Source of the DNA: Oscarella lobularis
Lineage: Eukaryota
DNA length: 64,000 nucleotides
NCBI RefSeq assembly: GCF_947507565.1
Contig: NC_089176.1
Span: 4,019,882 to 4,083,881, forward strand
Direction: 5' to 3'
This document shows positions 44,326 to 64,000 of the stretch, piece after piece (positions within the stretch are counted from its first letter, which is position 1; each line of letters begins with the position of its first letter). The position numbers and the translations under genes are program-made. A model generated the notes under the pieces. It was not told the origin of the DNA. It saw only the letters and a list, made by a program, of their open reading frames with translations, and made no database searches.

Positions 44326-44450
44326 CTTGCGCGTTCTCTGAAAGCACGTGGAGACGCTGTCCCGGATAACCTTCTAAACGACCAACATCAAAAACTAATA
44401 TATAGTACGCATGCATGCAAGAAAAGAAAAGTGATTTTCGCCGCTGTTTA

Positions 44451-46881
<2,431 letters not shown>

Positions 46882-47085
46882 TGCTCCGCCGTCGAGTTCT
46901 GCAGCGAAGAAGTCGAATAGCGAATGGGTTCCTATTGGGGGGCCTCACCCGGGGGTGGTGGAGGGTATTGGTTCGTTTCTGCTGGCCCGTAAGCGCCTTC
47001 GTCCATCGTTTCAGGGCGAGAAATCGATTGCTGAGCTCAAAAAAAGATCGATTCGCACACAATCACGTGTAATTTAGCGTACGCT

Positions 47086-48501: not shown

Positions 48502-49215
48502 ATGGAACGACCACGATACAAGCGTGAGCCGTCACCAGTGAAAAAAGCCAAGCCCCTAGGCGGCGGCTCCTTCCCGTCGCGATTCAACGTTACTCTCGTC
48601 CCCTTCGCATCGTCGAGCGGCTTCTTGAGCTCGTGCAGCAGCGAATCGGACTCCAATCACTCAAGTTATACAGACTTGCAGCTTTGGCCGTCGTCCAACG
48701 ACTACGACGTCCCCGAAAACACTCGCATGCCTTTTTTACGGCCCCCGCCGCTTCAGCGACAGCGGCGACGCAAACAGCACAAAGCCGCCGCTAATTCAAA
48801 GGCTCTCCTATCGAATTCTGCTCCGGCAATCCCCGCCAAGTCGTCTGGAGTCGGCAACGATCGATGGCGACGGCACAGCGCTCCCTCGCCATCGCGACTC
48901 GATTCTCCGCTAGCCCGTCAATTATCGACGGCTCAAACGGACTTTTCTTCGCACGTGGCGGCGGCATCGCGATCGTCGCCGCCGTCGCCGCCGTCTCCAC
49001 CCACGCCGTCGTCTCGTGATCAGATAGGGAGGAGAATGGTACGGGCGGAACCGCCATCGCCGCCGCAACCGCCAGTCAAAAAGGAACTACCAGAATTTCG
49101 ACTCCCTAGTATTCAATCAAAAGGAGCGAGACTCTTGTCGAAATCTGTGACGAATTTTGCTCCGCTTTTTGCAGCGGCGGCTCAACTTCGTACGGCGACA
49201 ACGAGCGTACACTGA
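48502..49215 (+). CDS. Intronless ORF encoding a Ser/Pro-rich, low-complexity basic protein. Unknown function, weak call.
   Basis: A 237-codon open frame from the ATG at 48502. It has no recognisable domain and is GC-rich. It could equally be non-coding. Confidence 0.25.
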   Translation: MERPRYKREPSPVKKAKPLGGGSFPSRFNVTLVPFASSSGFLSSCSSESDSNHSSYTDLQLWPSSNDYDVPENTRMPFLRPPPLQRQRRRKQHKAAANSKALLSNSAPAIPAKSSGVGNDRWRRHSAPSPSRLDSPLARQLSTAQTDFSSHVAAASRSSPPSPPSPPTPSSRDQIGRRMVRAEPPSPPQPPVKKELPEFRLPSIQSKGARLLSKSVTNFAPLFAAAAQLRTATTSVH

Positions 49216-49335
49216 CGTACGTTCTAACTCTTTCCTTGATAGTCAAGACTCTTGTAGTCATTGCTAACGTTTATCGAGTGTCTGTGTATGATGACGCGCA
49301 TGCAGATTATATCTTGCATGTCATTTGCCTCTATT

Positions 49336-51497
49336 TTCCAATACAAAATTGATCGAATATGATGTCGAGAATGTCTTCGGTTCCCACTTTGCCCGTTATT
49401 CGACCCAATTCAGTTAATGCGAGTCGGACTTCCTCTGCGGCGAGAACCGTTTCCATTTCCGCTAGAGTCATATGACGGAGGTGAGTAGGACTCACTCACC
49501 CAAAATAGCACAAGGTCGCGATCAAGGTCGGCGTGTGTGAGGTCGTTGCACGTGTTGGGTGGCGTGTGAGTGCGTACACAGGTAGTGCTTACCGCATTGA
49601 GATCGATCAAGACATTCCACGCATTCTCTGAGGTGTTTTCGATGTCGACTTCGAGTGAGAGACGGAGAATCAATCAAAGGATCACCGCATCTGAAATAAA
49701 GTAATTATATAGGAATAGGGGTTTTGATTTTACAGTTTCTTTAGTTCAGATTCGAGGAGTTGAAGTAGATGATCTATTCCAGCTGACGTTGTACAGGAAA
49801 TGGAGCAGGATACATACGCCTCATTCTTGATAGACAGGAAAATAGTCCCTTCTTTTTTCCTGCTGACCCTTACTTACTTTCAACATGCTACTAATGTAAC
49901 TTTCTTCTTCCGGACTCCTCAGATCGATTTTGTTAGCGACGACGATCAAACGTGCCGCCGTTCCCACGAAATGCGACAAAGATCCAAGACAAGACGAATC
50001 AATGACAACGAGTATTAAATCAGCGTTCTCAGCTCTGAGAACGAAGAGTCAATATATATAGATATTGGCTATTATTTTTGTACTTTTCTATTGCGCGTTT
50101 GACGCCCTCTCTTTCCACGGGATCGTTTGTTTTACGCAATCCCGCCGTATCACTTACGATGACTGGATAACCGGCGATATTCAATGCTGTCTCGATTACG
50201 TCTCGCGTTGTTCCGGCGACGGGGGAAACGATAGCGGCGGGGCGTTCGCCTGAAACTGAATGTTGGCTAAATTCAATGAAGGAGGAGGGAGTTACTTAGA
50301 ATATTGAGCAAGCTGCTTTTGCCCACGTTTGGTTCTCCGACTATAGCTAATCGAACGCCGCTTCGAAGACGTTCTCCACGTCTTGCGTCGCGTAAATGAG
50401 TGCGGATTTCGTCTATGATGCTTTTGATTTCTACTCTAGCTGTGAAGGAAGAAATTTGAGGGGGAGACTAGGAGAAGGAGTTTGAGTGTTTTGCCTTTAT
50501 CTAAGATATTGTCTTCTATGTCTTCACTCTCGCCAAAATCAATTGTTGCTTCGTAATAAGCTAAGCACTGTGAAGAATTCGCGATTAAATGGTTTCGTTG
50601 TTTCTACAGTACCTTGGCTAGAGAATTAGTCCATTTTGAATAGACTTTACTTAGGTGTCCCTAGGGTAGGTATGAGGATAATGTACATGTAATCTTGTGC
50701 TATTAACCTCCATCTGTCTCAATGCTTGTCGTCGTTGAACTTCCGTTTCGGCGTTAATTAAATCGGCCAAGCCTTCTACTTCCGTGAGATCAAATTTCCC
50801 GTTTAGAAATGCTCTAATTATTTAGTTAATAAATAAATAAATAAATAAATAAATAAATAGTGGGAGTGGAATGAGTGCGTGCCTCTTTGTGAATTCCCCG
50901 GGTTCTGCGTATCTTATGCCTTTTATAGACTGTAGTAGATCGGTCAAGGCAGATAGAACGGCTATGCTGCCATGCACGTGATATTCTACCACGTCTTCTC
51001 CTGTAAAACTGTTAGGGCCTACACAGTGTTACAAAGGTCATTCACATATAATGTACAGGGTCTTACGTGGAAACCAGAGAGCAATGGCTTTGTCAATGAG
51101 TTCATGCGTGACCGGATTGACGAGTTTTGTCAGTGTAGCTACTCTTGCTTGTGGAAGATGGTCCATTTTGCAAATATCTCGTAGAGTCTGGAGGCAGGAA
51201 AAACTGGAGGGATTGTCGGACTATCTGAGGTCGTACTTTAGAGGCCAAAGGCCCTGATACTCGAACAACAGCTACGCCTGTAAGGAGAGTGAGCTAGAAA
51301 TGTAGTAGAAGTAGAGAAGATTGCAATTCCCACCGCATTTTCCATGACCAGATGATAAAGCGAATATCGTAGGCGACCAATTTCTGTCACAAAACCGTCG
51401 CAAAAATACCAATTGCGCTCTGCAGTGTCGTTTGGCAGATTCGAAGCAAATAAATTGCTGCGAAGAAAGGAAAAGTTTTCTGAATAATACGGGCATT
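49336..51497 (-). CDS. GTPBP3: Mitochondrial tRNA-modification GTPase GTPBP3 (MnmE/TrmE homolog), multi-exon.
   Basis: N-terminal '[13 protein letters not shown](V)AVVRVSG'. '[14 protein letters not shown]', '[27 protein letters not shown]', '[12 protein letters not shown]', '[24 protein letters not shown]'. G domain '[39 protein letters not shown]', '[11 protein letters not shown]'. C-terminus '...[13 protein letters not shown]'. Confidence 0.8.
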
Positions 51498-51784
51498 TTT
51501 CCTGATGGCACGCAGCATAGATACACGCCGTAAGTCGTTTTCTTATAGTCTGTCCGCGTCTTACAGATTAGGCTTTCACCCGATGGGACCTCTACGATTA
51601 ATTTCCAATGCGTCTACGCGTCGTCCTACGAGGGTGCCGAGTCCTCGTGATTCTAAACTTCATCCCGAACTAAAGAAATCCTCAGATGAATGCATGGTGG
51701 ATTGATGGAACGTGCCAAGCGCCAAAACATTGTTTCGTGCTCCAGTGACGTCCCATCGGGGCCCCCTAGCTCCGTTGTTGATCT

Positions 51785-54120
51785 TTGTCTGGCAGTTGCG
51801 CTTTGACGTCGTTTCTTTGTTTAGACTATGAGGTCTTCCTTTTGTGCACGGAAACGTTTAAAGAATTGATGACAAACGTGCAGGAGAATCTTGCTGCTGA
51901 GGAGCATGGTATCAAGGCATTTTACGCCCCAACTAGCATTGATTGGGGCGGTTATCAAAGCGCTGCTATTGAAGAAGCGATTACGCAGTCCTCTCACGCT
52001 GTTATCATTTATTCCGATATACAAGATAGCTGTTGGACTTCTATTAGAGAGTCTATAGTTTGGAGGCAAATGTGCACCAAGCTAATCAAAGAATTGCCCT
52101 TAAGACCGCCTAATGTTTCTGAAGGCGACATCATAAGAACTATGCCGCTTTCTGCATCTAGGAAATTTAAAGAAGTTACTACTGAAACGTCTCCTACGAC
52201 GCTGGCGAAAAATATTGCTAAGGCGGTCAGAAACGAAAAGCAAGCTCCTTCTTCTAAATTGAGAGGCCAAGCTGATAAGAGGGTTGTTGTTCTTGACGAT
52301 GAGCCGTTCTGCCAAGATATATATAAGTAAGTATGCCCAAATAGGCCCAGTAGTTTTAGTTTGCAAATTCTTTAAATGGCTAGAGGTGTTTTCGTACGTA
52401 ATCAAAAGAAACGTTTGGTGGCTGTCAGAAAAGCTCTTTTGAATGACAAACGGATGAGAAATGAAATTGATATCTTGCAAGAATCAAGCAAATGCGACAA
52501 TTTGATTGGATTTATTGATGCCGTGGTAAGTCTACCATGTAGCGAGGACGTGTATTAGATGTCTACTGCAGACGATTGACACCGTTTGGCACTGCTGTCT
52601 TCAATATTGTGCATATTCAGTAGAACAAGTAGGTGCCCAGTCATCATAAATGCCATACGCGATGTGTATTCCTTTCATTTATTTGCAGTATGTACTTGAG
52701 AAGGCCCTACAGGACGTTATTGACGAAATTGACATTGTTCGTGGTGTTGCTAATGGCTTAGACTATCTTCACAGCAGGAAAAAACCGATAAGTAAGATGC
52801 CGTGTCCTTAATTAAGGTCATATTCGCTTTAACAATTAACTAATTAGCTCATATAAATCTCGCCCCTGCTGGCGTACGTATAATGGTGGAGGAAGACAGA
52901 AAGGCAGAAGCAAAAATTTGTGATATAAGTACTTCGCCCAGATTGTACGAACATGCAATGGAAGGATTCATTGTCAGAACAGTAGATGTGGGTAGGTGGG
53001 GCTGTGTGTTAGTATCTTACTTTTTGCAGAATCCGAGTCCTTATGTGGATGTCTTTTCGTTTGGATGCTTTGCGTACTACGTCATCACAAAAGGAGAGCA
53101 TCCGTTCAGTAAACCGGGGAGCGGGAGCAGTAAGCGAAGCGAAATTCAGTCAAGAATAGACTCTGGCGAGCATAAACCTACTTTCAAAGCGTTGGAAGGT
53201 GAGTTAATTAATTAATTAATTAAACGCGTATTTAGTGCGGCTTTAATTAATATTTTAGATTTGGTGAACGAAAGCATGCAACCGAAGGTGGATGAAAGCA
53301 GAGAAGCGGGGTTGAAAGAAAAAATTAGACGTATAGGGAATCCAGCAGCAGCTTTGGAGCTTGTGAAATCTACGTTAGGCAAAGGAAAAAAGTGAGTTTG
53401 CCTGTCAGTGCGTGCCTTCTCAGCAGATGCAGCTCGTTGCTGTGAACGCCTAGGCCTTCATCTTGCTGTATTAAAAGTCACTGTTACTTTTTCGAGCCGG
53501 CTCGCCAAGTTGATTTTCATACTGTACGTGGTGGTAATCATTATTCAACTTCATTGCTGTTACGGTTTCTACACAGAAATTTGGCTCTTGTACACCATTT
53601 TATGAAGAGATGGATCCTAAGATGGATCCTAAGAGTGCGAACGTGCGGCACTGGCTTTTGGACGAATTGGCTAACCATGATGAAGAAGTCCTTGGTTCTA
53701 CCACGTTGTGGGGAGCTAAATTTAAATATTTGGAAGCAAAAGGAGGTAGTGTTCTCGTAGTTACTTCTCATTAACTCTTTGTTAAAAGCGTTTCTAGATT
53801 TTCTAAAGAAGTGTGAAAATAGGTGCGATACATACGGAAATTCCGTGCAATCCCTTTCAAAATTCCTGCGTAATCAAGTACGAAACTTTGTGTTTTCAAA
53901 AAATAAACTAACTATAGGACGATACGTATAGTTCTGCCACGAACTTAACGATGACAAAATAGAAGAATTTTTTCAATTGACGAATGAAAAGAAAGCAGTG
54001 TTTCTCAACCGTGGGTTTCCCCGACTTCTTCCTGTATGCTGGGAGATAAGCAAGAAAGTACCCAATTTGTCTGTGTATGGGTATCACTGCAAGAAGCATT
54101 CGGCAATCACCTTTTCATGA
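51785..54120 (+). CDS. Kinase-like gene, probably a pseudokinase, with an unknown N-terminal domain. Multi-exon, and the structure is uncertain.
   Basis: Exon 1 is ORF 51785-52330 and has no known domain. Then 'RLVAVRKALLND...EIDILQ', 'GLDYLHSRKKPI', and 'HINLAPAGVRIMVEEDRKAEAKICDISTSP' (HRD becomes HIN, DFG becomes DIS), then 'DVFSFGCFAYYVITKGEHPF'. Further exons run to '...VFLNRGFPRLLPVCWEISKK...*' at about 54120. Confidence 0.4.
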
Positions 54121-54232
54121 CATCTCGGACTCTAGCCTTTTTTTTTTTAGTTTTTACGCTGTTGCACTCACTGGCTGTTTTTCTTTCGCTTTGTATGTTG
54201 TTATTGATTTATACGGGCATTTTCACGTGGAG

Positions 54233-54913
54233 ATGTTGCTGGTTGGCCTTTCAGGCGGAATAGCAAGCGGTAAAAGCACCGTTTCGCGACTATTGTTGGA
54301 TTGCGGATGTCCTATCATCGACGCCGATCAAATAGCTCGCCAAATCGTGCAGCCGGGCTTGCCTAGCTGGCACGCGATCGTTCGCAAATTTGGCCGAGAA
54401 ATTTTGAACGAGGACGAAACGATAAATCGCGAAAAACTCGGAAAAATCATATTTGATGATCCAGCTAAGCGAAGAGTGCTGAACGGTTGCACGCATCCGG
54501 CCATATTACGCAGAATGTTGTGGCAAATTTTGACGAATTTTATTCGAGGAGAAAAAGTCGTAATCTTAGATTCTCCGCTTTTGTTTGAGAGTGGAACGTT
54601 TGTTCGATACGTTCATCGTACAATTGTTGTATGGTGTTGCGAGGAAAGGCAAATTGAGAGACTTTACCTTCGAAATGGATTTGATAGAGACAGCGCTCTC
54701 AAGAGAATTTGTGCTCAAATGCCATTGGACGAAAAGCGTCGAAGGGCTACGTACGTTATTGATAATGACGGTCAACTAGAAAATACAAGACAGCAAGTTC
54801 AAGAAATTTACAAAGAACTCATCAAGTCGAAGTGGTGTTTGATGGGAAGGATTTTTAGACTGTCTTGTTCTTTTCTTATAGGACTTTTTGTAGCTCTATG
54901 GTTTCTGTCGTAA
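54233..54913 (+). CDS. Dephospho-CoA kinase (CoaE)-like P-loop protein with a hydrophobic C-terminal tail. Copy A, intact, single exon.
   Basis: 'MLLVGLSGGIASGKSTVSRLLLDCGCPIIDADQIARQIVQPG...AIVRKFGREILNEDETINREKLGKIIFDDPAKRRVLNGCTHPAI...VVILDSPLLFESG...TIVVWCCEERQIERL' follows the dephospho-CoA-kinase fold pattern. The tail is 'CLMGRIFRLSCSFLIGLFVALWFLS*'. Confidence 0.7.
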   Translation: MLLVGLSGGIASGKSTVSRLLLDCGCPIIDADQIARQIVQPGLPSWHAIVRKFGREILNEDETINREKLGKIIFDDPAKRRVLNGCTHPAILRRMLWQILTNFIRGEKVVILDSPLLFESGTFVRYVHRTIVVWCCEERQIERLYLRNGFDRDSALKRICAQMPLDEKRRRATYVIDNDGQLENTRQQVQEIYKELIKSKWCLMGRIFRLSCSFLIGLFVALWFLS

Positions 54914-55041
54914 TGATAGCACGGAATCTGAATTTCTGGAAGGTAGACCGTACTGTAAGACGGACTGGGCGTAGCCGGCGTGGGCGTAGCCGGCGTGGGC
55001 GTAGCGAAGGGTACAGTACAGTATGTACGGGAATTGCAAAG

Positions 55042-58000
55042 ATGGCGAATGCGGTCGAAAACGCGGCGACGGCGGAGCAACTAAACTACACGAACCCTTT
55101 GTCGTCGAAAAGTGATCAAGCACACGATCGTTTAGGAGCCGATATGGTTACCCGTGACCTGCTTATAAAAGCGTCGAAGAGAATCGCCTCGGTTTGGGAG
55201 AGCATTGCGAGACACCTTGACGTTCCTGAAGAAAGAATTAAAGCGATTCTTTGTGACTCTAATTTCAGAAATTTAGAAAAAAAGGCCTACGAAATGTTGG
55301 ATAAGTGGTGGGAAAAGAATTACAAAGAAGCCACGGAGGCGAAACTGTGTCTTGCTCTGTTGAGTGAAGAAATGACAGCAACGGCATCGGATCTCTTTGG
55401 AGACGAACTTGTTGAAGCTTTGAAGAGTTCAAAAAAAGGTAAGACTGATGTGATGGCTTATTTCGTCTTCTACACACTAATGATTATCGAACAGGTAGTA
55501 CCTTTTCCCAGCCCCAGAAGCAGCAAATCCAGCGCAACGGAAGTGATCTCGACACGACATCATTTGGGTCTAGAAAGGAAGAAATGAGAGCATCCTTTTC
55601 TAGCACAGAGTCGACTAAGCTCACAAGCAGCCAGGTAGGGGAAACAGATGGGAGAGAAACACAAAGTGAGCTGTTTTTGCTAACAATCTTTATTCATAAA
55701 TTGTGCTCTGCAGAACCAGTCATGTCTACTGAAGGGGCGTACGCACTTGGAGACGAAAATAAAGCATTCTGTACAGGTGATGGTGAGTGAATTAAAATTT
55801 TAGGGAATCGACGGATACGACTAGATTGTTTTGGTAGAGTTTTTGCGGCAAGGCTATCTGCAAAACAGATGCCTTTTGAGCTCACCGAAACCATTTTTTG
55901 GAAGGAAAAAAATTAGCGAAGATGTTGTCAACGCAGTAGAACAAAGGACGCCCGTTTGCTGGATTTGGGGTCCTCCCGGATGTGGAAAAAGTGCCGTCGC
56001 AATTAATGTTGTTCACAATCTAAATAAATCAGGCAACTATTCAATACCAATGTTCTTGGAAGAACCAAGCAACGTGAAACAAGTGGAGGAATTTATAATG
56101 TTGCATCTAAAGCGCGCTGAAACGTTTCAATCATACAAAGTGTTTTTTATTGACAAATGTTACACCATGTTAAAAAAGGAAGACGAGGAGGAGAAGTTTG
56201 TTGAAGCGATGGAGCGACTTTCTAAGTCTCATCCTCATGCGTTCACAGTTATAATTACAGCGTACGAAAAGCCTTCACTTCACTACAAACTCAACATCAG
56301 CTCACTAAAAGTCTCATGGCCTGACAGAACAGAAGCGGTCGAACTATTGGCCTTGAGCTGCAGAGGCGTCGACGTTAACGCAGTTAAAAATCACTACTAT
56401 CTAACCCAACTGCTTGCGTCTTGCTGCTGTAGAATGCCTTTTGCTATTATTGCTGTTGGATCAGTCTGGGTCGAGCGGCTTGAGTCCACCACAGATGTAC
56501 CTGCGTCTCTGCGAGAGCAACTTGAGTGCTTCCGTAATAGACACTCACTGTTTCAAGACTTTTGTGAAAATTTTGATAGCAAAAGGAGAGTTCTTCAAAA
56601 GTGCTTTGAAAAGTTTTATTTGTATTTATCTGCCGACTTGCAGAAAGCTCTTCGCTGTCTTTCGGTTGTTAACGGATCTTTTAGCAAAAACTGTGGAGAA
56701 CGATTTCTTGGTAAAGACGTTACTCAAGGAAAAATAACTAGTTTGTTGATGCTCGGTATTCTTGAGTCAGAAGAATGTCATCATTACTCTATACCGGATC
56801 TTTTTCGTCAGTATGTACTGACTCTAAGTGATCATCAGGACGCGCACGAACGTGCGAGAGCGGCGTATTGCAAGTATATAAAAAAAGTAATGGTTCAAAT
56901 GTGGAAAAATCGTAAAAGCGCGAAAGCATTAGAGATTTTTCAAGCCAACAGAAGAAGAATTGAAGGATTTTTAGAGGATTCTACTTCAATTGAAAGCGAC
57001 GCTGGTAAGAGTCTTGCCCTTGTCATTTGTATGACGGAGTACTCAATAGACGGCAAAGTGCTGCTAGAATGCACTTCGCCTTCTATTATCTGCCAATTTT
57101 GCAAATCGTGCCTAAAAAGCTCGCGTTTTCATGAAGAAGACCGTTTACATGTCTCTTTATTCTACGCTCAAGTCCTCCTACATCGGTGTCCGAGGCGTCG
57201 TATTGATGCGATTGATCGACAGCTTTCATTTTGTAAAACTCATTTGGAAGCGTTGTCAGCAGACAAGCAAGAGAGTTTCAGAACAAGATACTTGGTAACA
57301 TTGGTTGAATTGTGTTTGGTGAAGGGAACGAGCTTACTAGACGAAGATTTGGATGAAATAGAGAAGCAGAAGAGACTGCAGAATAAGGCTGCGCGACTAG
57401 CTGCAGCAAAAGCGCGCTTTCAACTGGGCGCGATGAGTTATGGAAAAGATGTCGATAGAGCACACGGTCATTTGAACGAGGCTGTTAGACACTTCAGAGA
57501 GTGCCGGGATGAACTACGCGAGACAGACTGTTCTAGATGTTTACATCAAATGTGGATTGGTGATTGTCTCTTTCGAAAGGGAAACTACAAAGACGCTCTC
57601 GGCGTTTTCAATGATCTATTGAAGGAGATAGAAGAAGTGTCTTGGCCTGGCGAAGGCGTTGAAACCAAAGACAGAAAAAACATGCGTATCTCTGCTATCT
57701 GTTATGCTCAAGGTTTGTCTCAAACTCTGCACTGTTTTGCTGAGAATTCTGGATGGAATGCCGATCAGCTGAAAGAGTGCCTTAAGTTGTTCGAGTCTTC
57801 GCTTGAATATATCCGAAATTGCTCCAACTCACCTTTTCTGCATTTTATTTACCTGGCAAAAGGAAAGCTGCATTTGTTGCTTTTTCTATGTGGAGAAGAA
57901 CATGATTCTAAACAATTGGAGTTGGCAACTCAATGCTTTGAAAAAGCGGCCGAAAATGACCGTATTCAATGTGAAGCCTCTTCTTTTGAGAAGATCTGCA

Positions 58001-58653
58001 ATGCTCCAGGCAAACTTTCAACGAAGAACATTTTTGATTCGGCCAAGATATTTCTTCCTTCAAGCGGCGGCTTTGTCAACATGCAAGAACTTTTCAAAAG
58101 CTGTAAGCGGCGGAACGAAGCGTTAGATCCTTACAAATCTCTCGGAATAAGTCTTTTTGCAAATTCTGCTTTGTATCTGGACAGCTTAAAAAGGGAACGG
58201 AGCAAAGAAGTAGTGTCGCTAGAAAAGGAAGACGTCGACTTCGAGTTTTCTGATGAGGACGACGACGAGGAAGAGGAAGAGGAAGAGGAAGAGGAAGGGG
58301 TTTGGTGGGAAAATGATGTAAAAGCTCAAACCGAGTTTCCAGACGAGAATTCTTCACGTAGGTTATTAATACCATCTAATTGCTTTCGGTCTCTGTCTCT
58401 TTTTGAGCAACACCAACTCTGTCGTCGAAGTAGTGAATCGCGTGGGAATACCAATACTCTAACCAATTTCGATAGTAGCCTCAGTCAGTGGCAAGTCTCA
58501 AGTTATGCTGCTGGTGATGGTGGCGGTGGTCTAGAAAAAAGGGAACGAATTGATCAGAAGTCTATTGGTATTCGCAGTCAAGATGACGAGAGCTCGTTGG
58601 AACTGATATCTTTAGTGGCTGAGCCTCCAACTATGTCAAAATCGCCGCCTTAA
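55042..58653 (+). CDS. NLR-like receptor: death domain, then a STAND P-loop NTPase (NB-ARC/NACHT-like), then TPR-like helical repeats, then an acidic tail. Three exons: 55042-55438, 55495-55782 and 55838-58653.
   Basis: Death-domain exon 'LLIKASKRIASVWESIARHLDVPEERIKAILCDSNFRNLEKKAYEMLDKWWEKNYKEATEAKLCLALLSEEM'. Walker A 'VCWIWGPPGCGKSAVAI'. Walker B 'KVFFIDKC'. A long alpha-helical repeat region follows. Poly-E tract 'DEDDDEEEEEEEEEEEG'. Splice phases were checked (1, 1, 0). Confidence 0.7.
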
Positions 58654-58711
58654 GATTTATTTTAAGTGGACTGAACAATGTTGCTAAGGCATCGCTACTT
58701 TTTCAGCCGTT

Positions 58712-59420
58712 TAGAAATGCTCTAATTATAATTATTTAGTTAATAAATAAATAAATAAATAGTGGGAGTGGAATGAGTGCGTGCCTCTTTGTGAATTCCC
58801 CGGGTTCTGCGTATCTTATGCCTTTTATAGACTGTAGTAGATCAGTCAAGGCAGATAGAACGGATATGCTGCCATGCACGTGATATTCTACCACGTCTTC
58901 TCCTGTAAAACTGTTGGGGCCTACACAGTGTCACAAAGGTCGTTCGCCTATAATGTACAGGGTCTTACGTGGAAACCAGAGAGCCATGGCTTTGTCAATG
59001 AGTTCATACGTGACCGGATTGACGAGTTTTGTCAGTGTAGCTACTCTTGCTTGTGGAAAATGGTCCATTTTGCAAATATCTCGTAGAGTCTGGAGGCAGG
59101 AAAAACTGGAGGGATTGTCGGACTATCTGAGGTCGTACTTTAGAGGCCAAAGGCCCTGATACTCGAACAACAGCTACGCCTATAAGGGGAATGAGCTAGA
59201 AATGCCGTACTATAGAAGATTGTATTTCCCACCGCATTTTCCATGACCAGATGATAAAGCAAAGATCGTAGGCGACCAATTTCTGTCGCAAAAACATCGC
59301 AACTGTTGCAGAATTGCTCGATGACGTCGTTTGACCGATTTGAAGCAGAGAAATTGTGGCCAAGAAGGAAAACGTCGATTGAATAATACGGGCATGTCTT
59401 TTCTAACGTGCGTCTTGCGA
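58712..59420 (-). pseudogene. Duplicated fragment of the GTPBP3 5' region (promoter, exon 1, exons 2-3). It is a paralogous copy of 50806-51530.
   Basis: Near-identical sequence. Compare ORFs 58874-59086 and 58914-59159 with 50972-51184 and 51051-51257. 59210-59458 (-) encodes '[18 protein letters not shown]' as in GTPBP3 exon 1. No downstream GTPBP3 exons follow. Confidence 0.6.
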
Positions 59421-59424
59421 CGAG

Positions 59425-60003
59425 ATGTTGCTGGTTGGCCTTTCGGGCGGGATAGCAAGCGGTAAAAGCACCGTTTCGCGAATACTGTTGGACTGCGGAT
59501 GTCCTATCATCGACGCTGATCAAATAGCTCGCCAAATCGTGCAGCCGGGCTTGCCTAGCTGGCACGCGATCGTTCGCAAATTTGGCCGAGAAATTTTGAA
59601 CGAGGACGAAACGATAAATCGCGAAAAACTCGGAAAAATCATATTTGATGATCCAGCTAAGCGAAGAGTGCTGAACGGTTGCACGCATCCGGCCATTTTA
59701 CGCAGAATGTTGTGGCAAATTTTGACGAATTTTATTCGAGGAGAAAAAGTCGTAATTTTGGATTCTCCGCTTTTGTTTGAAAGTGGGACGTTTGTTCGAT
59801 ATGTTCATCGTACAATTGTTGTATGGTGTTGCGAGGAAAGGCAAATTGAGAGACTTTATCTTCGAAATGGATTTGATAGAGACAGCGCTCTCAAGAGAAT
59901 TCGTGCTCAAATGTCATTGGACGAAAAGCGTCGAAGGGCTACGTACGTTATTGATAATGACGGTCAGCTGGAAAATACAAGACAGCAAATTCAGGAAATT
60001 TGA
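59425..60003 (+). CDS. Dephospho-CoA-kinase-like copy B. It is truncated: a stop follows 'QQIQEI' and it lacks the hydrophobic tail.
   Basis: About 95% identical to copy A over 'MLLVGLSGGIASGKSTVSRILLDCG...TRQQIQEI*'. It sits directly after the duplicated GTPBP3 5' fragment. Confidence 0.55.
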   Translation: MLLVGLSGGIASGKSTVSRILLDCGCPIIDADQIARQIVQPGLPSWHAIVRKFGREILNEDETINREKLGKIIFDDPAKRRVLNGCTHPAILRRMLWQILTNFIRGEKVVILDSPLLFESGTFVRYVHRTIVVWCCEERQIERLYLRNGFDRDSALKRIRAQMSLDEKRRRATYVIDNDGQLENTRQQIQEI

Positions 60004-60049
60004 TGAGTACTGTATTCCTTTCATTTATTTGCAGTACGTACTCAAGAAG

Positions 60050-61480
60050 GATTGAGCGTATGACACCCTAAAGGGCGTTGTCAATGAAATTGGGATTGTT
60101 CGTGGTGTTGCTAGTGGCTTAGACTATCTTCACAGGAGGGAAAAACCGATAAGTAAGGTGCTTAGCTTAGGTTTCTCAAGTAAGCCACTTTAATAACAAT
60201 TAATTAGCTCGTATAAATCTCACCCCCTGCTGGCGTACGTATAATGGAGAAAAACGGAAAGGCAGTAGCGAAGATTTGTGTTACAAGTACTTCGTCCGAA
60301 TTGAATGAACAGGCAATTAATTGCAATGGAAGGATTCATGTCTCCTGAATTCACCGTCAGAACAGTAGATGTGGGTAGGCGGGGCTGTGTGTCAGTGTCT
60401 TATTTCTGTAGAATCCTGATGCGGATGTCTTTTCGTTTGGATGTTTTGCGTACTACGTCATCACGAAAGGACAGCATCCATTCTGTGAACCGGGGAGCGG
60501 GAGCAGTGAGCGAAGCAAAATTCAGTCAAGAATAAACTCTGGCGAGCATAAACCTACTTTCGAAGCGTTGGAACGTAAGTTAATTAATCAATTGATTAAT
60601 TAAACACGTATTTAGTGCCGCTTTAATTAATATTTTTAAAATTTACTCTACGTAGATTTGGTGAGCAAAACCATGAAACTGGAGGTGGAAGAAGACGAAC
60701 TTAGACGTATAGGGAATCCAGCAGCAGCTTTGGCGCTTGTGAAATCTACGTTGGACGAAGGAAAAAAGTGAGTTTGCCTGTCAGTGCGTGCCTTCTCAGC
60801 AGATGCAGCTCGTTACTGTGAATAGGCCTTCATCTTGCTGTATTACAAGTCACTGTTACTTTTTCAACCCGGAACGCCAATGCCATTTTCATCATGTACG
60901 TGGTAATCATTACTCAACTTCGTTGTTGTTACGATTTCTACGCAGGATTTTGGCAATTGTACACCATTTTATGAAGGGAAGAGAACTGGTAATATGGACA
61001 TGGACCCGCTTTTGGACGAACTGTCTGAACACGAAAAAGAAGTCTTTGGTTCTACCAAGTGGGGAGTTCGACTTCTAAGTTTTGGAGCAAAAATAGAAAT
61101 TGAAAATGGTATTGTTTTCTCATAGTTAGTTCTTATCAACTCTTTGTTAAAAGCGTTCTAGATTTTCAGTTCAAGGTTGCATTTAAGGGTAAGGGCGGGA
61201 GAGATGCAGCCAAAAAGTACGACAATTCCATTCAAGGTTTTTCATATTTCCTGCGTGATCAAGTATGAAACTTCGTGTTTTCAAAAATAAACGAACTACA
61301 GAATGATACATGTAGTTTTCTCACGAACTTAACGATGAGAAAAAAAGAGAATTTTGGGAATCGGATGATAAGAAAGCATTGATGCTCAACCGTGGGTTTC
61401 CCAGGCTTCTTCCTGTGTGCTGGGACATAAGCAAGAAAATGCCCAATTTGTCCAAGTATCACTGCGACGAGAAGCATTAG
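60050..61480 (+). pseudogene. Degenerate second copy of the kinase-like gene, paralogous to about 52690-54120.
   Basis: Recognisable remnants 'GIVRGVASGLDYLHRREKPI', 'KICVTSTSSELNEQAINCNGRIHVS', 'VLRTTSSRKDSIHSVNRGAG', 'MLNRGFPRLLPVCWDISKKMPNLSKYHC', with frame disruptions. Confidence 0.4.
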
Positions 61481-61757
61481 ACAATGACCTCTTCATGATA
61501 TCTCTGCCTCTAACCCTTTTTCTAGTTCTACATTTTTACACTGTCAGTTGCACTCACTGACTGTTTTTTTTCTTCGTTTTATACTGTATGTCGTTAGTCT
61601 ATATGGATGCTGCTGGCCGGTCACTACTAATTAACCGTTCTCGGTATTTAATTAACGAAAGCTGTCCGAGGCTACCTGATGATGTACAGTACAGTGGAGA
61701 GGGCGTGCACTAGCCACCCCCGCGTACGGGAGTACGGGAGTGAGATTTCGATCCAAG

Positions 61758-62021
61758 ATGGCGACTGCGAGCGAAAGAGACAGGGTTCCCAAAAGGCATC
61801 GCCTTCGGGCGGTGGCCAGCTACATCGGCCCATACTGGGAGCATATCGCTGACCACCTTCTACTCGAGTCCTCTTGTGAAAGGACCATTGAGAGGATTCG
61901 CCGTGATTACAAGTTCTCTCAAGATCAAGCTTTCCAAATGTTGTGCACGTGGTCGGAAATGTTTCATACGGAAGCTACAGAGGAGAAACTGTGCCTTGCT
62001 CTATTAAGCGAAGAGTGCTGA
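61758..62021 (+). CDS. Small death-domain-only ORF (DD-2).
   Basis: 'MATASERDRVPKRHRLRAVASYIGPYWEHIADHLLLESSCERTIERIRRDYKFSQDQAFQMLCTWSEMFHTEATEEKLCLALLSEEC*' has a death-domain-like pattern (W..IA..L, qAf.ML..W, ATxxxLxxAL). Confidence 0.45.
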   Translation: MATASERDRVPKRHRLRAVASYIGPYWEHIADHLLLESSCERTIERIRRDYKFSQDQAFQMLCTWSEMFHTEATEEKLCLALLSEEC

Positions 62022-62449
62022 ACGGTTGCACGCATCCGGCCATTTTACGCAACATGTTGTGGCAAATTTTGACGAATTTCATTCGAGGAGAAAAAGTCGT
62101 AATTTTGGATTCTCCGCTTTTGTTTGAAAGTGGAACGTTTGTTCGATACATTCATCGTACAATTGTTGTATGGTGTTGCGAGGAGAGGCAAATTGAGAGA
62201 CTTTATCTTCGAAATGGATTTGATAGAGACAGCGCTCTCAAGAGAATTCGTGCTCAAATGTCATTGGATGAAAAGCGCCAAAGAGCTACGTACGTTATTG
62301 ATAATAACGATCAGCTGGAAAATACAAGACAGCAAACTCAACAAATTTACAAAGAACTCCTCAAGTCAAAGTGGTGTTTGATGGGCAGGATTTTTAGACT
62401 GTCTTGTTCTTTTCTTATAGGTCTTTTTGTAGCACTATGGTTTCTGTGA
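62010..62449 (+). pseudogene. C-terminal half of a dephospho-CoA-kinase-like copy (copy C), fused out of frame onto the end of the DD-2 exon.
   Basis: 'RRVLNGCTHPAILRNMLWQILTNFIRGEKVVILDSPLLFESGTFVRYIHRTIVVWCCEERQIERL...CLMGRIFRLSCSFLIGLFVALWFL*' has no P-loop half. The junction sequence 'ttaagcgaagagtgctgaacgg' is shared with copy A ('ctaagcgaagagtgctgaacgg'). Confidence 0.5.
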
Positions 62450-62523
62450 TAATACATTTAATTGGATTTATGAATTAGTGAGCCAGTGACGCGCGAGTCG
62501 TTTATACGGGAATTGCAACGAAC

Positions 62524-62926
62524 ATGTCGTCGAAACTGCCGCACGATCTAGCCGCCGGCGCTGGACAGAAATTGCCAAGTGCGATTCGTCGTCTCAAGGA
62601 TAGAGGGAATGGTTGTAGTAGCGTAGAACGATTTTACAGACGAGATACTTCTCGACCTCGCGAAGAAAATCGGCGGAAAGTGGGATTTTGTAGCAGTCCG
62701 GCTTGGGTTGGCAGATCACGAAACTGAGAATATCCGTGACAATTTCACGAAAGTGCAAGACCGAGCTTTTGAAATGTTGAAGACGTGGCGACAGAATGCC
62801 TTCAAAGACGCAACTCGTACCAATCTCTGTATCGCCTTGCTTAAAGAAAAATTGAAGAGTATCGCGTCGGAAACTTTTGGGGATGACTTTGTTGAAGGGG
62901 TCGACAAATCATTATCGCAGAAGTGA
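62524..62926 (+). CDS. Death-domain protein DD-3. Probably two exons, with a very short intron at about 62608-62636.
   Basis: 'MSSKLPHDLAAGAGQKLPSAIRRLKDRGN' | 'EILLDLAKKIGGKWDFVAVRLGLADHETENIRDNFTKVQDRAFEMLKTWRQNAFKDATRTNLCIALLKEKLKSIASETFGDDFVEGVDKSLSQK*'. Confidence 0.45.
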
Positions 62927-63089
62927 AGGTGATTTTCAAGAAACACGATGATTTGTCCAAGTATCACTGCGAGAAGCATCCGACAGTGTGATATCTCTGC
63001 TCTAGCTCTTTTTCTAGTTTTTACGCTGTTACTTTCTTTCTTTTGCTTTTTGTTATTATCATACGGGCATGTTCAATGTGGATACAGTA

Positions 63090-63300
63090 GCAAGCGGCGA
63101 AAGCACCGTTTCGCGAGTACAGTTGGATTGCGGATCGACGCCGATCAAATAGCTCGCCAAATCGTGCAGCCGGGCTTGCCTAGCTGGCACGCGATCATTC
63201 GCAAATTTGGCCGAGAAATTTTGAACGAGGACGAAACGATAAATCGCGAAAAAGTCGATCCAGCCAGCTAAGCGAAGAGTGCTGAATGGTTCCAGCTATT
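63090..63300 (+). pseudogene. Decayed dephospho-CoA-kinase-like fragment (copy D) with internal deletions.
   Basis: '...ASGESTVSRVQLDCGSTPIK', then 'IARQIVQPGLPSWHAIIRKFGREILNEDETINREKVDPAS*', then 'AKRRVLNGS' in shifting frames. Confidence 0.45.
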
Positions 63301-63410
63301 TTACGCAGCACTTCACGAGTAGTCTGGAGGCCACACCTATGCCACGGTCACGTGCAAGGGTCAGGTGACCTGACTACTTCACGAGCGAGTCGATTATACG
63401 GGAATTGCAA

Positions 63411-63805
63411 CAAACATGGCGGCGCACGTCGGGGCTGGAGAAGAATTGTCAGGTACAATCCGTCGTCCCAAGGATAGAGAATGATTGTAGCAGCGTAGAA
63501 ACGATTTTACAGATAAGACACTTCTCGACGTCGCGAAGAAAATCGGCGGAAAGTGGGATTTTGTAGCAGTCTGGCTTACGCCCAAGTTGGAAGAGCATGA
63601 AATTGACAATATCAAAGCCAATTTTACGAGAGTACAAGACCAAGCTTTTGAAATGTTGAAGATGTGGCGAAAGAATGGCCACAAAGCTGCAACTCCTACC
63701 AATCTCTGTGTCGCCTTGCTTGAAGAAAAGTTGAAGAAAATCGCGTCGGAAACTTTTGGGGATGACTTTGTTGAAGGGGTCGACAAATCATTATCGCAGA
63801 AGTGA
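63411..63805 (+). CDS. Death-domain protein DD-4, a paralog of DD-3 with the same two-exon layout.
   Basis: 'MAAHVGAGEELSGTIRRPKDRE...' | '...LLDVAKKIGGKWDFVAVWLTPKLEEHEIDNIKANFTRVQDQAFEMLKMWRKNGHKAATPTNLCVALLEEKLKKIASETFGDDFVEGVDKSLSQK*'. The last 72 residues are about 80% identical to DD-3. Confidence 0.45.
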
Positions 63806-64000
63806 AGGTGATTTTCAAGAAACACGATGATTTGTCCAAGTATCACTGCGAGAAGCATCCGACAGTGTGATATCTCTGCTCTAGCTCTTTTTCTAGTTTT
63901 TACGCTGTTACTTTCGTTCTTTCTTTTGCTTTTTGTTATTATCATACGGGCATGTTCAATGTGGATACAGTAGCAAGCGGCGAAAGCACCGTTTCGCGAG

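What the first reader, a model, noticed from the sequence alone, without database searches (positions are those of the whole stretch)
51500..64000. Tandemly duplicated, partly decayed cluster of death-domain, STAND NTPase/TPR, dephospho-CoA-kinase-like and pseudokinase genes, a candidate innate-immunity or cell-death locus
About 12.5 kb contains one three-exon gene with the NLR-like order death domain, P-loop (Walker A 'GPPGCGKS'), TPR-like repeats, poly-E tail (55042-58653), at least four death-domain ORFs (inside the large gene, and at 61758, 62524 and 63411), five intact or decayed copies of a dephospho-CoA-kinase-like P-loop protein (54233, 59425, 62010, 63090, about 63960), and two copies of a kinase-like gene whose catalytic motifs are degenerate (HRD becomes HIN, DFG becomes DIS). 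This co-localisation of adaptor (death domain), NTPase switch (STAND) and pseudokinase modules, with rapid duplication and decay, is the signature of lineage-specific immune and death-signalling gene expansions. The recurrent placement of a CoaE-like P-loop domain next to death domains, including a hydrophobic tail-anchor on the intact copy 130 bp upstream of the NLR-like gene, is something I cannot place as described anywhere.
Basis: partly seen in the sequence, partly recalled or inferred. Interest (0 to 1): 0.8.

Follow-up and report, generated by a model that had tools for sequence, protein, structure and literature searches.

The report
Sponge death-domain, STAND and RNase cluster

Summary
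All listed elements are at or near the stated coordinates, and the cluster runs at least 4.6 kb past the window end. The window is Oscarella lobularis (homoscleromorph sponge): three RefSeq proteins match it at 100%.

Three corrections:
- The "pseudokinase" is a gene of 10 or more exons of the IRE1/RNase L type. It is a pseudokinase (VAVR, HIN, DIS) plus a KEN ribonuclease domain (Pfam PF06479 above threshold). It has no luminal or membrane part. It is headed by a sub-threshold TIR-like domain in copy c1 and by a death domain in copy c3. RefSeq already calls these genes "IRE1-like".
- The CoaE-like gene is the normal tail-anchored DCAKD orthologue. It keeps its place next to an ANKRD40-like gene, as in another species that has no death-domain genes nearby. 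It is under strong purifying selection (dN/dS 0.07). Its fragments mark duplication junctions and are not fusions.
- The NLR-like gene is a death domain + divergent NB-ARC-like STAND + TPR gene, an architecture known from other early-branching animals.

The repeated unit is [head–pseudokinase–KEN] → DCAKD → [DD–STAND–TPR].

The proposed coupling, in which STAND oligomers recruit and activate the RNases through death domains, is inference only. Expression was not tested, and the RNase paralogues evolve almost neutrally. I rate this a new variant of known kinds, of moderate interest.

The parts
50799..51496 (+). Repeat R1. A copy of the region that lies directly upstream of DCAKD in the alternate haplotype and upstream of DCAKD-B. 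Here it lies directly upstream of exon 0 of c1.
   Evidence: 90% identical to 58707-59395. The alignment shows homology ending about 25 bp before the DCAKD ATG.
51505..54120 (+). Gene c1: TIR-like head + pseudokinase + KEN ribonuclease (IRE1/RNase L type).
- Exon 0 starts at ATG 51505; its donor site was not mapped (RefSeq model: MARSIDTR).
- Further exons: 51825-52326, 52384-52525, 52572-52628, 52689-52791, 52848-52972, 53030-53198, 53259-53391, 53454-53523, 53577-53745, 53798-53877, 53932-54120.
   Evidence: - Pfam on my own splice model of c1 (which lacks the 52572-52628 exon and keeps the 52973-53029 intron): Pkinase 32.6 bits (GA 31.7), PK_Tyr_Ser-Thr 30.3 (GA 23.1), Ribonuc_2-5A 26.3 (GA 23.3).
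- TIR-like head: 19.5 bits on the ORF and 16.1 in the model, both below GA 21.3.
- Best solved relatives are IRE1 (2e-11) and RNase L (2e-4).
- hhalign against IRE1/RNase L KEN gives E = 3.2e-4 with the RN...H motif aligned.
- The frame is open across conserved GT-AG introns of 46-62 nt.
- The N-terminal exons equal RefSeq XP_065846551.1.
54233..54913 (+). DCAKD-A: an intact, single-exon, tail-anchored dephospho-CoA-kinase-domain gene (226 aa). The only full-length copy on this haplotype.
   Evidence: CoaE 196 bits. 100% identical to XP_065826875.1. 59% identical to Corticium DCAKD and 45-55% to other animal DCAKD proteins. dN/dS 0.07.
55042..58653 (+). STAND-1: death domain + divergent NB-ARC-like STAND NTPase + TPR-like solenoid + poly-E/disordered tail. 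Exons 55042-55438, 55495-55665, 55714-55782, 55838-58653 (1150 aa).
   Evidence: - Pfam: Death 33 bits, AAA 32, NPHP3_N 27.7, NB-ARC only 12.8.
- AF2 model: pLDDT 75.
- Foldseek: 6mfv STAND-TPR 6.6e-11, then Apaf-1, CED-4, Avs3 and plant NLRs.
- 32 of 38 homologues match NB-ARC and 23 of 38 match TPR_12.
58707..59395 (+). Repeat R2: the DCAKD upstream region, contiguous with DCAKD-B as in the alternate haplotype.
59425..60003 (+). DCAKD-B: a truncated copy (192 aa) that has lost the C-terminal membrane tail. It is joined at 60005-60011 to the c2 fragment.
   Evidence: 97-98% identical to copy A. Closer to the alternate-haplotype DCAKD (dS 0.07) than copy A is (dS 0.21).
60011..61596 (+). c2: a decayed partial copy of the pseudokinase-KEN gene.
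- It has no head and no N-lobe exons.
- There are frameshifts in the C-lobe exon.
- The KEN exons are still open (…YFLRDQFSHE…).
   Evidence: 75% nucleotide identity to 52665-54203. The frame switches at 60217/60305/60412. Its 3' exons are used in the chimeric RefSeq model XP_065846551.1.
61758..62018 (+). Death-domain fragment, truncated at the junction with DCAKD-C.
   Evidence: Death 21.2-21.9 bits, just under GA 22.6. It is in a different frame from DCAKD-C.
62006..62449 (+). DCAKD-C: the C-terminal half only, with the membrane tail.
   Evidence: 93% identical to copy A residues 131-277.
62524..63294 (+). Internally deleted unit 1: a death-domain exon (62627-62923), joined to a 3'-end remnant of a KEN gene and a decayed DCAKD 5' remnant (62961-63294).
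   Evidence: Death 35.4 bits. 87% identical to the next unit. DCAKD remnant 48% aa identity.
63381..64000 (+). Internally deleted unit 2: a death-domain exon (63491-63802, 96% identical to the death domain of c3) plus a DCAKD remnant from 63971 that runs off the window.

Beyond the window, in continued window numbering:
- c3, DD-pseudokinase-KEN: about 64815-67042.
- A remnant of the DCAKD tail: about 67201-67251.
- STAND-2: from 67541 to beyond 68653.
   Evidence: Death 32.9 bits. Death-domain identity matrix. Extension read from locus L001.

Best explanation
**Shown**
- This is a structurally variable, birth-and-death gene cluster in the sponge Oscarella lobularis.
- It is built by repeated duplication and deletion of a three-gene unit:
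  1. A cytosolic IRE1/RNase L-type gene: a catalytically dead kinase domain followed by a KEN (HEPN-superfamily) endoribonuclease domain. It is headed by a death domain (c3) or a TIR-like domain (c1) in place of IRE1's luminal sensor or RNase L's ankyrin repeats.
  2. The ordinary tail-anchored DCAKD gene.
  3. A death domain + NB-ARC-like STAND NTPase + TPR gene.
- DCAKD is a bystander. It sat next to an ANKRD40-like gene before the cluster grew, and pieces of it were copied along with its neighbours.

**Inferred mechanism**
- The STAND-TPR proteins are ligand-gated switches that oligomerise like apoptosomes or NLRs and cluster their death domains.
- The death-domain-headed pseudokinase-KEN proteins are recruited by homotypic death-domain contacts.
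- Enforced proximity drives the back-to-back kinase-domain dimerisation that switches on KEN RNases in IRE1 and RNase L.
- The result would be RNA cleavage, translational arrest or cell death.

**Probabilities**
- Anatomy and DCAKD as bystander: about 0.9.
- An immune or cell-death role for the cluster: about 0.5.
- Direct STAND-to-RNase coupling through death domains: about 0.25-0.3.
For: **Species and annotation**
- RefSeq O. lobularis proteins XP_065826875.1 (DCAKD), XP_065846551.1 and XP_065846645.1 ('IRE1-like') match the locus at 100% over their exons.

**KEN gene**
- Pfam Ribonuc_2-5A 26.3 bits, above GA 23.3, together with Pkinase and PK_Tyr_Ser-Thr above GA.
- IRE1 and then RNase L are the best solved relatives, ahead of all ordinary kinases.
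- The profile comparison aligns HPFFW, Y..RN...H and RFPxLL. R, the following polar residue and H are the catalytic residues named in PMC3710099.
- c1 and c3 keep open frames and shared splice sites across 10 exons.

**STAND gene**
- Confident AF2 model.
- Fold matches to a STAND-TPR protein, Apaf-1, CED-4, Avs3 and plant NLRs.
- Transitive NB-ARC and TPR homology.
- Oscarella paralogues carry DD or CARD heads.

**DCAKD as bystander**
-.
- PADLOC gives no defence-family match.

**Coupling**
- Sensor-type and RNase-type genes alternate on one strand.
- Their death domains form one local subfamily, 35-46% identical and sharing the LC.ALL.E motif.
- The closest DD-STAND-TPR paralogue elsewhere in the genome is flanked on both sides by Sacsin-like genes with HEPN RNase domains.
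- The haplotypes differ in gene content.
Against: - I have no expression data.
- No RefSeq protein clusters with the STAND-1 or STAND-2 ORFs.
- c1 and c3 diverge almost neutrally: dN/dS 0.80 overall, 0.84 in the KEN part. c3 lacks the conserved Tyr and gets no Pfam KEN hit. Some or all copies may therefore be drifting towards loss.
- STAND-1 itself does not reach the NB-ARC threshold, and its Walker B (FFIDK) lacks a second acidic residue.
- The TIR assignment is unproven.
- The STAND/HEPN-type neighbourhood recurs in only 2 of the 4 loci examined.
- Death-domain relatedness may reflect local exon copying rather than interaction.
Confidence: 0.6

Rival explanations
1. Duplication graveyard. 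The genes are neighbours only because non-allelic recombination keeps copying this segment. The STAND genes and the pseudokinase-KEN genes have unrelated functions or none, and most copies are on their way to being pseudogenes.
For: - Many truncated or frameshifted pieces: c2, DCAKD-B to E, and the two DD-only units.
- dN/dS of about 0.8 between c1 and c3.
- The alternate haplotype stretch that I read has no PK-KEN sequence.
- No RefSeq protein was found for the STAND ORFs.
Against: - c1, c3, STAND-1 and STAND-2 keep long open frames (2.8 kb in one exon for STAND-1) and intact splice sites.
- c1 retains all KEN catalytic residues.
- A paralogous STAND gene again sits among HEPN RNase genes.
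Confidence: 0.3
2. The CoaE-like protein is a co-opted paralogue that works with the death-domain proteins, for example as a membrane-anchored nucleotide kinase acting as a signalling component.
For: It is physically interleaved with DD genes. The intact copy ends 128 bp upstream of STAND-1, and the stop codon of c1 lies only about 110 bp upstream of its start.
Against: - It is the RefSeq DCAKD-like gene itself.
- The tail anchor is present in all three DCAKD orthologues I inspected.
- ANKRD40-DCAKD synteny holds in a species with no death-domain genes called beside it.
- dN/dS is 0.07.
- The partial copies are out of frame with the death domains.
- Each haplotype keeps exactly one full-length copy.
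- There is no PADLOC match.
Confidence: 0.06
3. The kinase-KEN genes are simply the housekeeping unfolded-protein-response IRE1 of the sponge, as the RefSeq name suggests.
For: RefSeq names them 'serine/threonine-protein kinase/endoribonuclease IRE1-like', and IRE1 is the top solved relative.
Against: - There is no signal peptide, luminal domain or membrane span. The proteins start with a death domain or a TIR-like domain.
- All three kinase catalytic motifs are degenerate, whereas IRE1 needs autophosphorylation.
- The genes are multi-copy, fast-evolving and variable between haplotypes.
Confidence: 0.03
4. Assembly artefact: a collapsed or expanded repeat in a hifiasm metagenome assembly.
For: The contig comes from a metagenome-style assembly, and the primary and alternate contigs disagree in structure.
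Against: - The copies differ by 3-25% rather than being identical.
- RefSeq proteins from the species' reference annotation match c1, c2, c3 and DCAKD-A exactly.
Confidence: 0.03

Closest known systems
RNase L (vertebrate 2-5A-dependent ribonuclease)
   Same: A soluble protein with the order: regulatory head, then pseudokinase, then KEN RNase. The kinase domain lacks catalytic residues, and the KEN motif Y..RN...H is retained in c1.
   Different: The head is a death domain or a TIR-like domain, not ankyrin repeats, so 2-5A binding is not expected. Sequence is closer to IRE1 (2e-11) than to RNase L (2e-4). PMC10400998 places true RNase L only in jawed vertebrates.
IRE1 (ER stress kinase/endoribonuclease)
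   Same: The kinase-KEN unit is the closest sequence match, and RefSeq names the genes after it.
   Different: There is no luminal sensor and no transmembrane segment. The kinase motifs are VAVR, HIN and DIS. The genes are multi-copy and fast-evolving.
DD/CARD-NB-ARC-TPR/WD40 proteins of cnidarians, amphioxus and sea urchin (expanded Apaf-1/CED-4 family; Zmasek et al. 2007, PMC2246300)
   Same: The order death-fold head, then STAND NTPase, then helical repeat sensor. The fold matches Apaf-1 and CED-4.
   Different: The NTPase is very divergent: NB-ARC scores 12.8 bits for STAND-1, and only 45 relatives were found among 1.84 billion representatives. The family appears largely confined to Oscarella, with weak links to octocoral proteins.
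Death-domain-fused HEPN RNases of sponges and cnidarians (Sacsin-like, CXorf38, DZIP3 families; Anantharaman et al. 2013, PMC3710099)
   Same: The same logic: a death-fold adaptor attached to a HEPN-superfamily RNase, proposed there as an apoptotic or antiviral effector. A paralogous STAND gene here is flanked by Sacsin-like HEPN genes.
   Different: Here the HEPN member is the KEN domain with its obligatory kinase-like partner. The passages of that paper that I read do not mention a DD-kinase-KEN architecture.
DCAKD (animal dephospho-CoA kinase domain-containing protein)
   Same: A full-length CoaE domain, about 226 aa, with a C-terminal hydrophobic anchor. 45-59% identical to named animal DCAKD proteins.
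   Different: Nothing that matters. It is only unusual in lying inside a duplicating cluster and leaving four partial copies.
IRAK/Pelle (death domain + kinase)
   Same: c3 has a death domain followed by a kinase-like domain.
   Different: The kinase is of IRE1 type and carries a KEN extension, so it is not an IRAK.

Membership tests
Death domain (PF00531) | Pfam score above the gathering threshold of 22.6 bits | tested here: met
   Scores of 33-35, 35.4, 32.9, 30.0 and 37.0 bits for five copies. One truncated fragment scores 21.2.
STAND NTPase, NB-ARC/AP-ATPase clade | P-loop NTPase with Walker A and B, followed by a helical ARC/GxP module and a winged helix, with a fold like Apaf-1/CED-4 | tested here: met
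   - Sequence motifs: GPPGCGKS, FFID and RMPFAI (GxP-like).
- AF2 pLDDT is above 85 over most of residues 30-370.
- Foldseek hits include 6mfv, Apaf-1, CED-4, ZAR1, NRC and Avs3.
STAND NTPase, NB-ARC/AP-ATPase clade | Pfam NB-ARC (PF00931) at or above 23.5 bits | tested here: not met
   STAND-1 scores 12.8 and STAND-2 22.9. The alternate-haplotype paralogue scores 24.3, which meets the threshold. 32 of 38 homologues match. STAND-2 has a NACHT-like VDGYDE Walker B, so the assignment within STAND remains ambiguous.
Bona fide animal NLR (NACHT + LRR; Yuen et al. 2014) | NACHT domain with C-terminal leucine-rich repeats | tested here: not met
   There are no LRRs. The C-terminal region is a TPR-like helical solenoid. 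The definition is from PMC3879445.
TPR repeat region | Pfam TPR models above threshold | tested here: inconclusive
   STAND-1 scores 19.9 bits on TPR_2 (GA 27). The paralogue XP_065842597.1 scores 31.7 on TPR_8 and 30.7 on TPR_2, both above GA. The model is an all-helical solenoid, and the best fold match is a STAND-TPR protein.
KEN / Ribonuc_2-5A (PF06479), HEPN superfamily | Pfam score at or above 23.3 bits, located directly C-terminal to a kinase-like domain | tested here: met
   c1 scores 26.3 bits over residues 449-559, after the kinase. c2 and c3 do not reach the threshold on their own.
KEN / Ribonuc_2-5A (PF06479), HEPN superfamily | Catalytic Rx4-6H motif with a polar residue after the R, plus the upstream Tyr | tested here: met
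   - c1: TYGNSVQSLSKFLRNQFCH, which aligns with IRE1 GSVRDLLRAMRNKKHH and RNase L FYQNTVGDLLKFIRNLGEH.
- c3 has Y→C, and c2 has N→D.
IRE1 | N-terminal ER-luminal sensor domain and a transmembrane segment | tested here: not met
   The proteins begin with a death domain or a TIR-like domain. RefSeq models of 539 and 577 aa have no such region.
IRE1 | Active kinase (VAIK Lys, HRD, DFG) | tested here: not met
   The motifs are VAVR, HIN and DIS in both c1 and c3.
RNase L | N-terminal ankyrin repeats that bind 2-5A | tested here: not met
   No Ank hit in c1 or c3. 2-5A binding itself cannot be tested here.
TIR domain | Pfam TIR at or above 21.3 bits, or a TIR fold | tested here: inconclusive
   Pfam gives 19.5 bits, E = 9e-4, on the N-terminal half only. 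There is no PDB sequence hit. hhalign gives E = 0.039 in the expected register. The AF2 model is unusable at pLDDT 29.
DCAKD | Full CoaE domain, C-terminal hydrophobic anchor, and orthology to animal DCAKD | tested here: met
   CoaE 196 bits over positions 2-179 of 180. The best named hits are DCAKD. Hydrophobic tails are present in the Corticium, Oculina and Scyliorhinus orthologues. The UBL exon of the neighbouring ANKRD40-like gene is conserved in a second species.
Immune or cell-death locus | Induction on challenge, or a loss-of-function phenotype | not testable with these tools
   No expression or functional data could be reached.

The most novel reading that the evidence does not exclude
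A sponge has an RNase L-like effector arm wired to NLR/apoptosome-like sensors rather than to 2-5A. Death-domain STAND-TPR proteins would oligomerise on a trigger, recruit death-domain-headed (or TIR-like-headed) pseudokinase-KEN ribonucleases encoded next door, and activate them by induced proximity. The result would be an RNA-degrading abortive-infection or cell-death response. This would mean that regulated KEN-RNase immunity predates vertebrates and evolved by swapping heads on the IRE1 kinase-RNase unit.
Probability: 0.25. Interest if true: 0.8.

Novelty: new variant of a known kind. Interest (0 to 1): 0.5.

Why it matters
- Sponges make 2',5'-oligoadenylates, yet true RNase L is reported only from jawed vertebrates (PMC10400998). 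How early animals use KEN/HEPN RNases in defence is therefore an open question.
- Here a cytosolic pseudokinase-KEN RNase carries a death domain or a TIR-like head and sits beside death-domain STAND sensors. That gives a concrete hypothesis that can be tested at the bench: a sensor, an adaptor contact and an RNase effector, in an animal that can be cultured (O. lobularis buds).
- It also shows how a housekeeping gene, DCAKD, can be dragged through an immune-type birth-and-death region. The two haplotypes of the same sample each keep a different paralogue intact.
- If the coupling is wrong, the locus is still a clean example of head-swapping on the IRE1 kinase-RNase unit.

Tried and rejected
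1. **First homologue search, with the whole 940-aa ORF.** It returned only itself, probably because the poly-E tail filled the candidate list. I repeated it without the tail in the exhaustive representative search.
2. **Spliced c1 model in the representative search.** I used the word-indexed search instead, which found only the two RefSeq O. lobularis proteins. The wider distribution of DD/TIR-PK-KEN genes therefore remains unknown.
3. **Genomic context of the RefSeq proteins.** They are not on record.
4. **AF2 of XP_065846551.1 with a two-sequence alignment.** pLDDT was 29, so the model is unusable and no fold search was run on it.
5. **TIR assignment.** PDB sequence search found no TIR. I left this as inconclusive.
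6. **JGI metagenome scan for relatives of the PK-KEN gene.** Nothing was found.
7. **PADLOC scan of STAND-1, STAND-2, c3 and DCAKD.** Only generic P-loop and kinase noise.
8. **Ideas considered and rejected**
   - An IRAK/Pelle identity for c3: the kinase is of IRE1 type and has a KEN extension.
   - DD-CoaE fusion proteins: the reading frames differ.
   - An assembly duplication artefact: the copies have diverged.
   - DCAKD as a retrocopy: the orthologue in a second species is also a single-exon gene at the syntenic site.

Full report
**Where the window comes from**

The 940-aa ORF at 55831-58653 is found on a single public contig, ena:ERZ18545485:ptg000371l. This is a 108-kb hifiasm primary contig. 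Locus L001 from that contig equals window 45831 onwards and extends the sequence to the equivalent of window position 68653. Three RefSeq proteins of the homoscleromorph sponge Oscarella lobularis match the locus exactly:
- XP_065826875.1, 'dephospho-CoA kinase-like', is 100% identical to window 54233-54910.
- XP_065846551.1 and XP_065846645.1, both 'serine/threonine-protein kinase/endoribonuclease IRE1-like', match the kinase-like genes.

The window is therefore eukaryotic. Introns in this region are short, 46-62 nt in the two genes modelled.

**Check of the observation**

- *Death domains.* Pfam Death scores are above the gathering score of 22.6 for STAND-1 exon 1 (33-35 bits), for 62627-62923 (35.4) and for 63491-63802 (32.9). 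The fragment at 61683-62018 scores 21.2, just under threshold. It is truncated where it abuts a DCAKD half-copy.
- *CoaE-like copies.* They are at 54233 (intact, CoaE 196 bits), 59425 (97-98% identical, tail missing), 62006 (C-terminal half), 63088 and 63971 (both decayed).
The same three changes occur in a third copy beyond the window, so they predate the duplications.
- *The large gene.* I find four exons: 55042-55438, 55495-55665, 55714-55782 and 55838-58653.
- *Duplicates.* Copies are 75-97% identical, so they are diverged paralogues and not assembly duplicates.

**What the 'pseudokinase' really is**

I followed conserved open segments and shared GT-AG sites in copy c1 (window) and copy c3 (beyond the window). 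This gives a gene of ten or more exons whose last four or five exons lie downstream of the kinase.
- The spliced c1 product scores above Pfam thresholds for Pkinase (32.6, GA 31.7), PK_Tyr_Ser-Thr (30.3, GA 23.1) and Ribonuc_2-5A/KEN (26.3, GA 23.3).
- Against all PDB sequences the best matches are IRE1 (E = 2e-11) and then RNase L (2e-4), ahead of ordinary kinases.
It aligns SHCYFF with HPFFW, TYGNSVQSLSKFLRNQFCH with the catalytic Y..RN...H segment, and GFPRLLP with RFPHLL.
- The R, the following polar residue and the H are the catalytic residues of KEN and other HEPN RNases according to PMC3710099.
- c1 keeps all of them. c3 has lost the Tyr, and c2 has N→D.

None of the copies has a signal peptide, a luminal domain or a membrane span. 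c3 begins with a death domain (30 bits) in the same exon as the linker that leads into the kinase. c1 begins with a domain that resembles the first half of a TIR domain. The TIR assignment stays inconclusive:
- Pfam 19.5 bits, below GA 21.3.
- No PDB sequence hit.
- hhalign E = 0.039.
- An AF2 model that is unusable at pLDDT 29.

c2 (60011-61596) lacks the head and the N-lobe exons and has frameshifts in the C-lobe exon. The RefSeq model XP_065846551.1 joins the 5' exons of c1 to the 3' exons of c2 across about 7.4 kb. This is either a modelling artefact or a third haplotype, and I could not decide which.

**The NLR-like gene**

- *Direct Pfam hits.* STAND-1 gives only weak hits: AAA 32, NPHP3_N 27.7, nSTAND1 25.3, NB-ARC 12.8.
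- *Exhaustive search.* An HMMER search of 1.84 billion representative proteins with the ORF minus its poly-E tail found only 45 relatives at E ≤ 0.001 and five at E ≤ 1e-30. The latter are P0001 itself plus O. lobularis paralogues. Of 38 relatives scanned, 32 match NB-ARC and 23 match TPR_12.
- *Structure.* An AF2 model built on that alignment is confident over residues 20-730 (mean pLDDT 75). Foldseek places it next to a STAND-TPR protein (6mfv, 6.6e-11), then Apaf-1, CED-4, Avs3 and plant NLR resistosomes.
- *Paralogues.* Oscarella paralogues carry DD or CARD heads.
- *Literature.* The architecture death-fold head + NB-ARC-like STAND + TPR is already known from amphioxus, sea urchin and Nematostella (PMC2246300). 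It is not a bona fide NLR in the NACHT-LRR sense (PMC3879445).

**The CoaE-like gene is a bystander**

- Copy A is the RefSeq DCAKD-like protein itself. Its best named relatives are animal DCAKD proteins, with Corticium at 59%.
- The sponge, coral and shark orthologues that I inspected all end in a hydrophobic tail. The 'tail anchor' is therefore likely a family trait.
- In a second species (L003, DCAKD 56% identical) the same single-exon gene lies about 3.8 kb downstream of an ANKRD40-like gene. Its UBL exon is 44% identical to the one at window 47694-47960 (E = 1e-15). No death-domain genes are called in the 10 kb that follow.
- dN/dS between DCAKD copies is 0.07-0.19.
- The DD and DCAKD pieces that abut each other are in different frames.
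- PADLOC has no match for it.

The alternate haplotig of the same sample (L002) is 98.4% identical to window 41486-51496. It then runs from repeat R straight into an intact DCAKD, with no c1. That DCAKD is closer to the truncated copy B (dS 0.07) than to the intact copy A (dS 0.21). A remnant of an A-type tail lies further along L002. So each haplotype keeps one full-length DCAKD, but from a different paralogue lineage.

Repeat R is the region upstream of DCAKD. On the primary haplotype, a copy of R ends about 10 bp before the ATG of c1 exon 0.

**Map of the cluster (window numbering, continued through L001)**

| Interval | Element |
|---|---|
| 50799-51496 | R1 |
| 51505-54120 | c1 |
| 54233-54913 | DCAKD-A |
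| 55042-58653 | STAND-1 |
| 58707-59395 | R2 |
| 59425-60003 | DCAKD-B |
| 60011-61596 | c2 fragment |
| 61758-62018 | DD fragment |
| 62006-62449 | DCAKD-C |
| 62524-64191 | Two internally deleted units (DD exon + KEN 3' remnant + DCAKD 5' remnant) |
| about 64815-67042 | c3 |
| about 67201-67251 | DCAKD tail remnant |
| 67541 to beyond 68653 | STAND-2 (1007-aa ORF, 32% identical to STAND-1) |

The table rests. The repeated unit is therefore [head-pseudokinase-KEN] → DCAKD → [DD-STAND-TPR]. Two fairly complete units are present, with debris between them.

**How it most likely works**

The domain content and the arrangement are shown. The mechanism is inferred.
- STAND NTPases with repeat sensors oligomerise on activation, and death domains signal by homotypic assembly.
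- KEN RNases of IRE1 and RNase L are switched on when their kinase-like domains are brought together.

Both points are established knowledge of those families. A death-domain head on a pseudokinase-KEN protein, encoded beside death-domain STAND genes, suggests recruitment and proximity-driven RNase activation.

Points in favour:
- The death domains of the two gene classes form one local subfamily, 35-46% identical.
- The closest DD-STAND-TPR paralogue elsewhere in the genome (L004) is flanked on both sides by Sacsin-like genes with HEPN RNase domains of 45.7 and 55.6 bits. PMC3710099 had already noted DEATH-fused Sacsin-like HEPN proteins in another sponge.

Points against:
- Two more distant paralogue loci have no RNase neighbours.
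- c1 and c3 diverge with dN/dS 0.80 (kinase part 0.66, KEN part 0.84), while their introns are 90% identical. This fits either relaxed constraint or an arms race.
- c3 does not reach the Pfam KEN threshold.
- No RefSeq protein was found for the STAND ORFs.
- Expression is untested.

**Comparison with what is known, and novelty**

The STAND genes are new, divergent members of a known kind, and DCAKD is ordinary. The pseudokinase-KEN genes work like RNase L in layout, but they fail the membership tests for RNase L (no ankyrin repeats) and for IRE1 (no luminal or membrane part, dead kinase).

PMC10400998 reports kinase+RNase homologues across eukaryotes in ten clades and places true RNase L only in jawed vertebrates. 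The text I could read does not describe death-domain or TIR heads. I found no paper that describes a DD- or TIR-headed kinase-KEN protein. However, the protein searches were capped, so I cannot say how widespread the architecture is.

**Verdict**
- A different point, the head-swapped RNase L/IRE1-type genes beside DD-STAND genes, is a new variant of known kinds and of moderate interest.

Noticed in passing
window 440-4819 (+): Five tandem intronless ORFs, each with a GIY-YIG nuclease domain (up to 47.6 bits) followed by CCHC zinc knuckles. They are 71-90% identical at nucleotide level. This is a second tandem family in the same window, of unknown role.
   Followed up: partly
L004 1-16720 (contig ptg000025l): The closest paralogue of the DD-STAND-TPR gene (XP_065842597.1) lies between two Sacsin-like genes that end in HEPN RNase domains of 45.7 and 55.6 bits. 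This is a second case of a STAND gene beside HEPN-superfamily RNase genes. I did not see the N-termini of the Sacsin-like genes.
   Followed up: partly
window 54233-54913 and 59425-60003; L002 10001-10681 and 14360-14471: The two haplotypes each keep one full-length DCAKD, but from different paralogue lineages. The primary haplotype has A intact and B truncated. The alternate haplotype has a B-type copy intact (dS 0.07 to B, 0.21 to A) and only a remnant of an A-type tail.
   Followed up: partly
window 51505-53198 joined to 60640-61477: RefSeq XP_065846551.1 is a chimera. It joins the 5' exons of c1 to the 3' exons of the decayed copy c2, and skips c1's own intact KEN exons, DCAKD-A and STAND-1. 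This is either a gene-model artefact or a third structural haplotype.
   Followed up: partly
window 51380-51560 vs 59280-59460 vs L002 9860-10040: The ATG of c1 exon 0 (51505) lies about 10 bp after the end of a copy of the DCAKD upstream region (repeat R). The intact DCAKD-A has lost R and starts about 110 bp after the stop codon of c1. c1 may have captured a DCAKD promoter. This was not tested.
   Followed up: partly
window 52384-54117 vs continued coordinates 65327-67039: c1 and c3 are a mosaic. The kinase part has dS 0.12 and the KEN part has dS 0.41, while the introns are 90% identical overall. This suggests gene conversion, or different ages for the two halves.
   Followed up: no
window 38726-41331 (-): A gene with ankyrin repeats, a long coiled coil and a kinase domain that looks active (Pkinase 92.9 bits). 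It is unrelated to the pseudokinase-KEN genes apart from a weak kinase-level match.
   Followed up: no
window 12744-15282 (-) and 26985-28695 (-): A tandem pair of GT31 galactosyltransferase genes, 71% identical at nucleotide level, and exons of a vault-PARP-like gene (VIT 100.5 bits, PARP_reg 34.5 bits).
   Followed up: no
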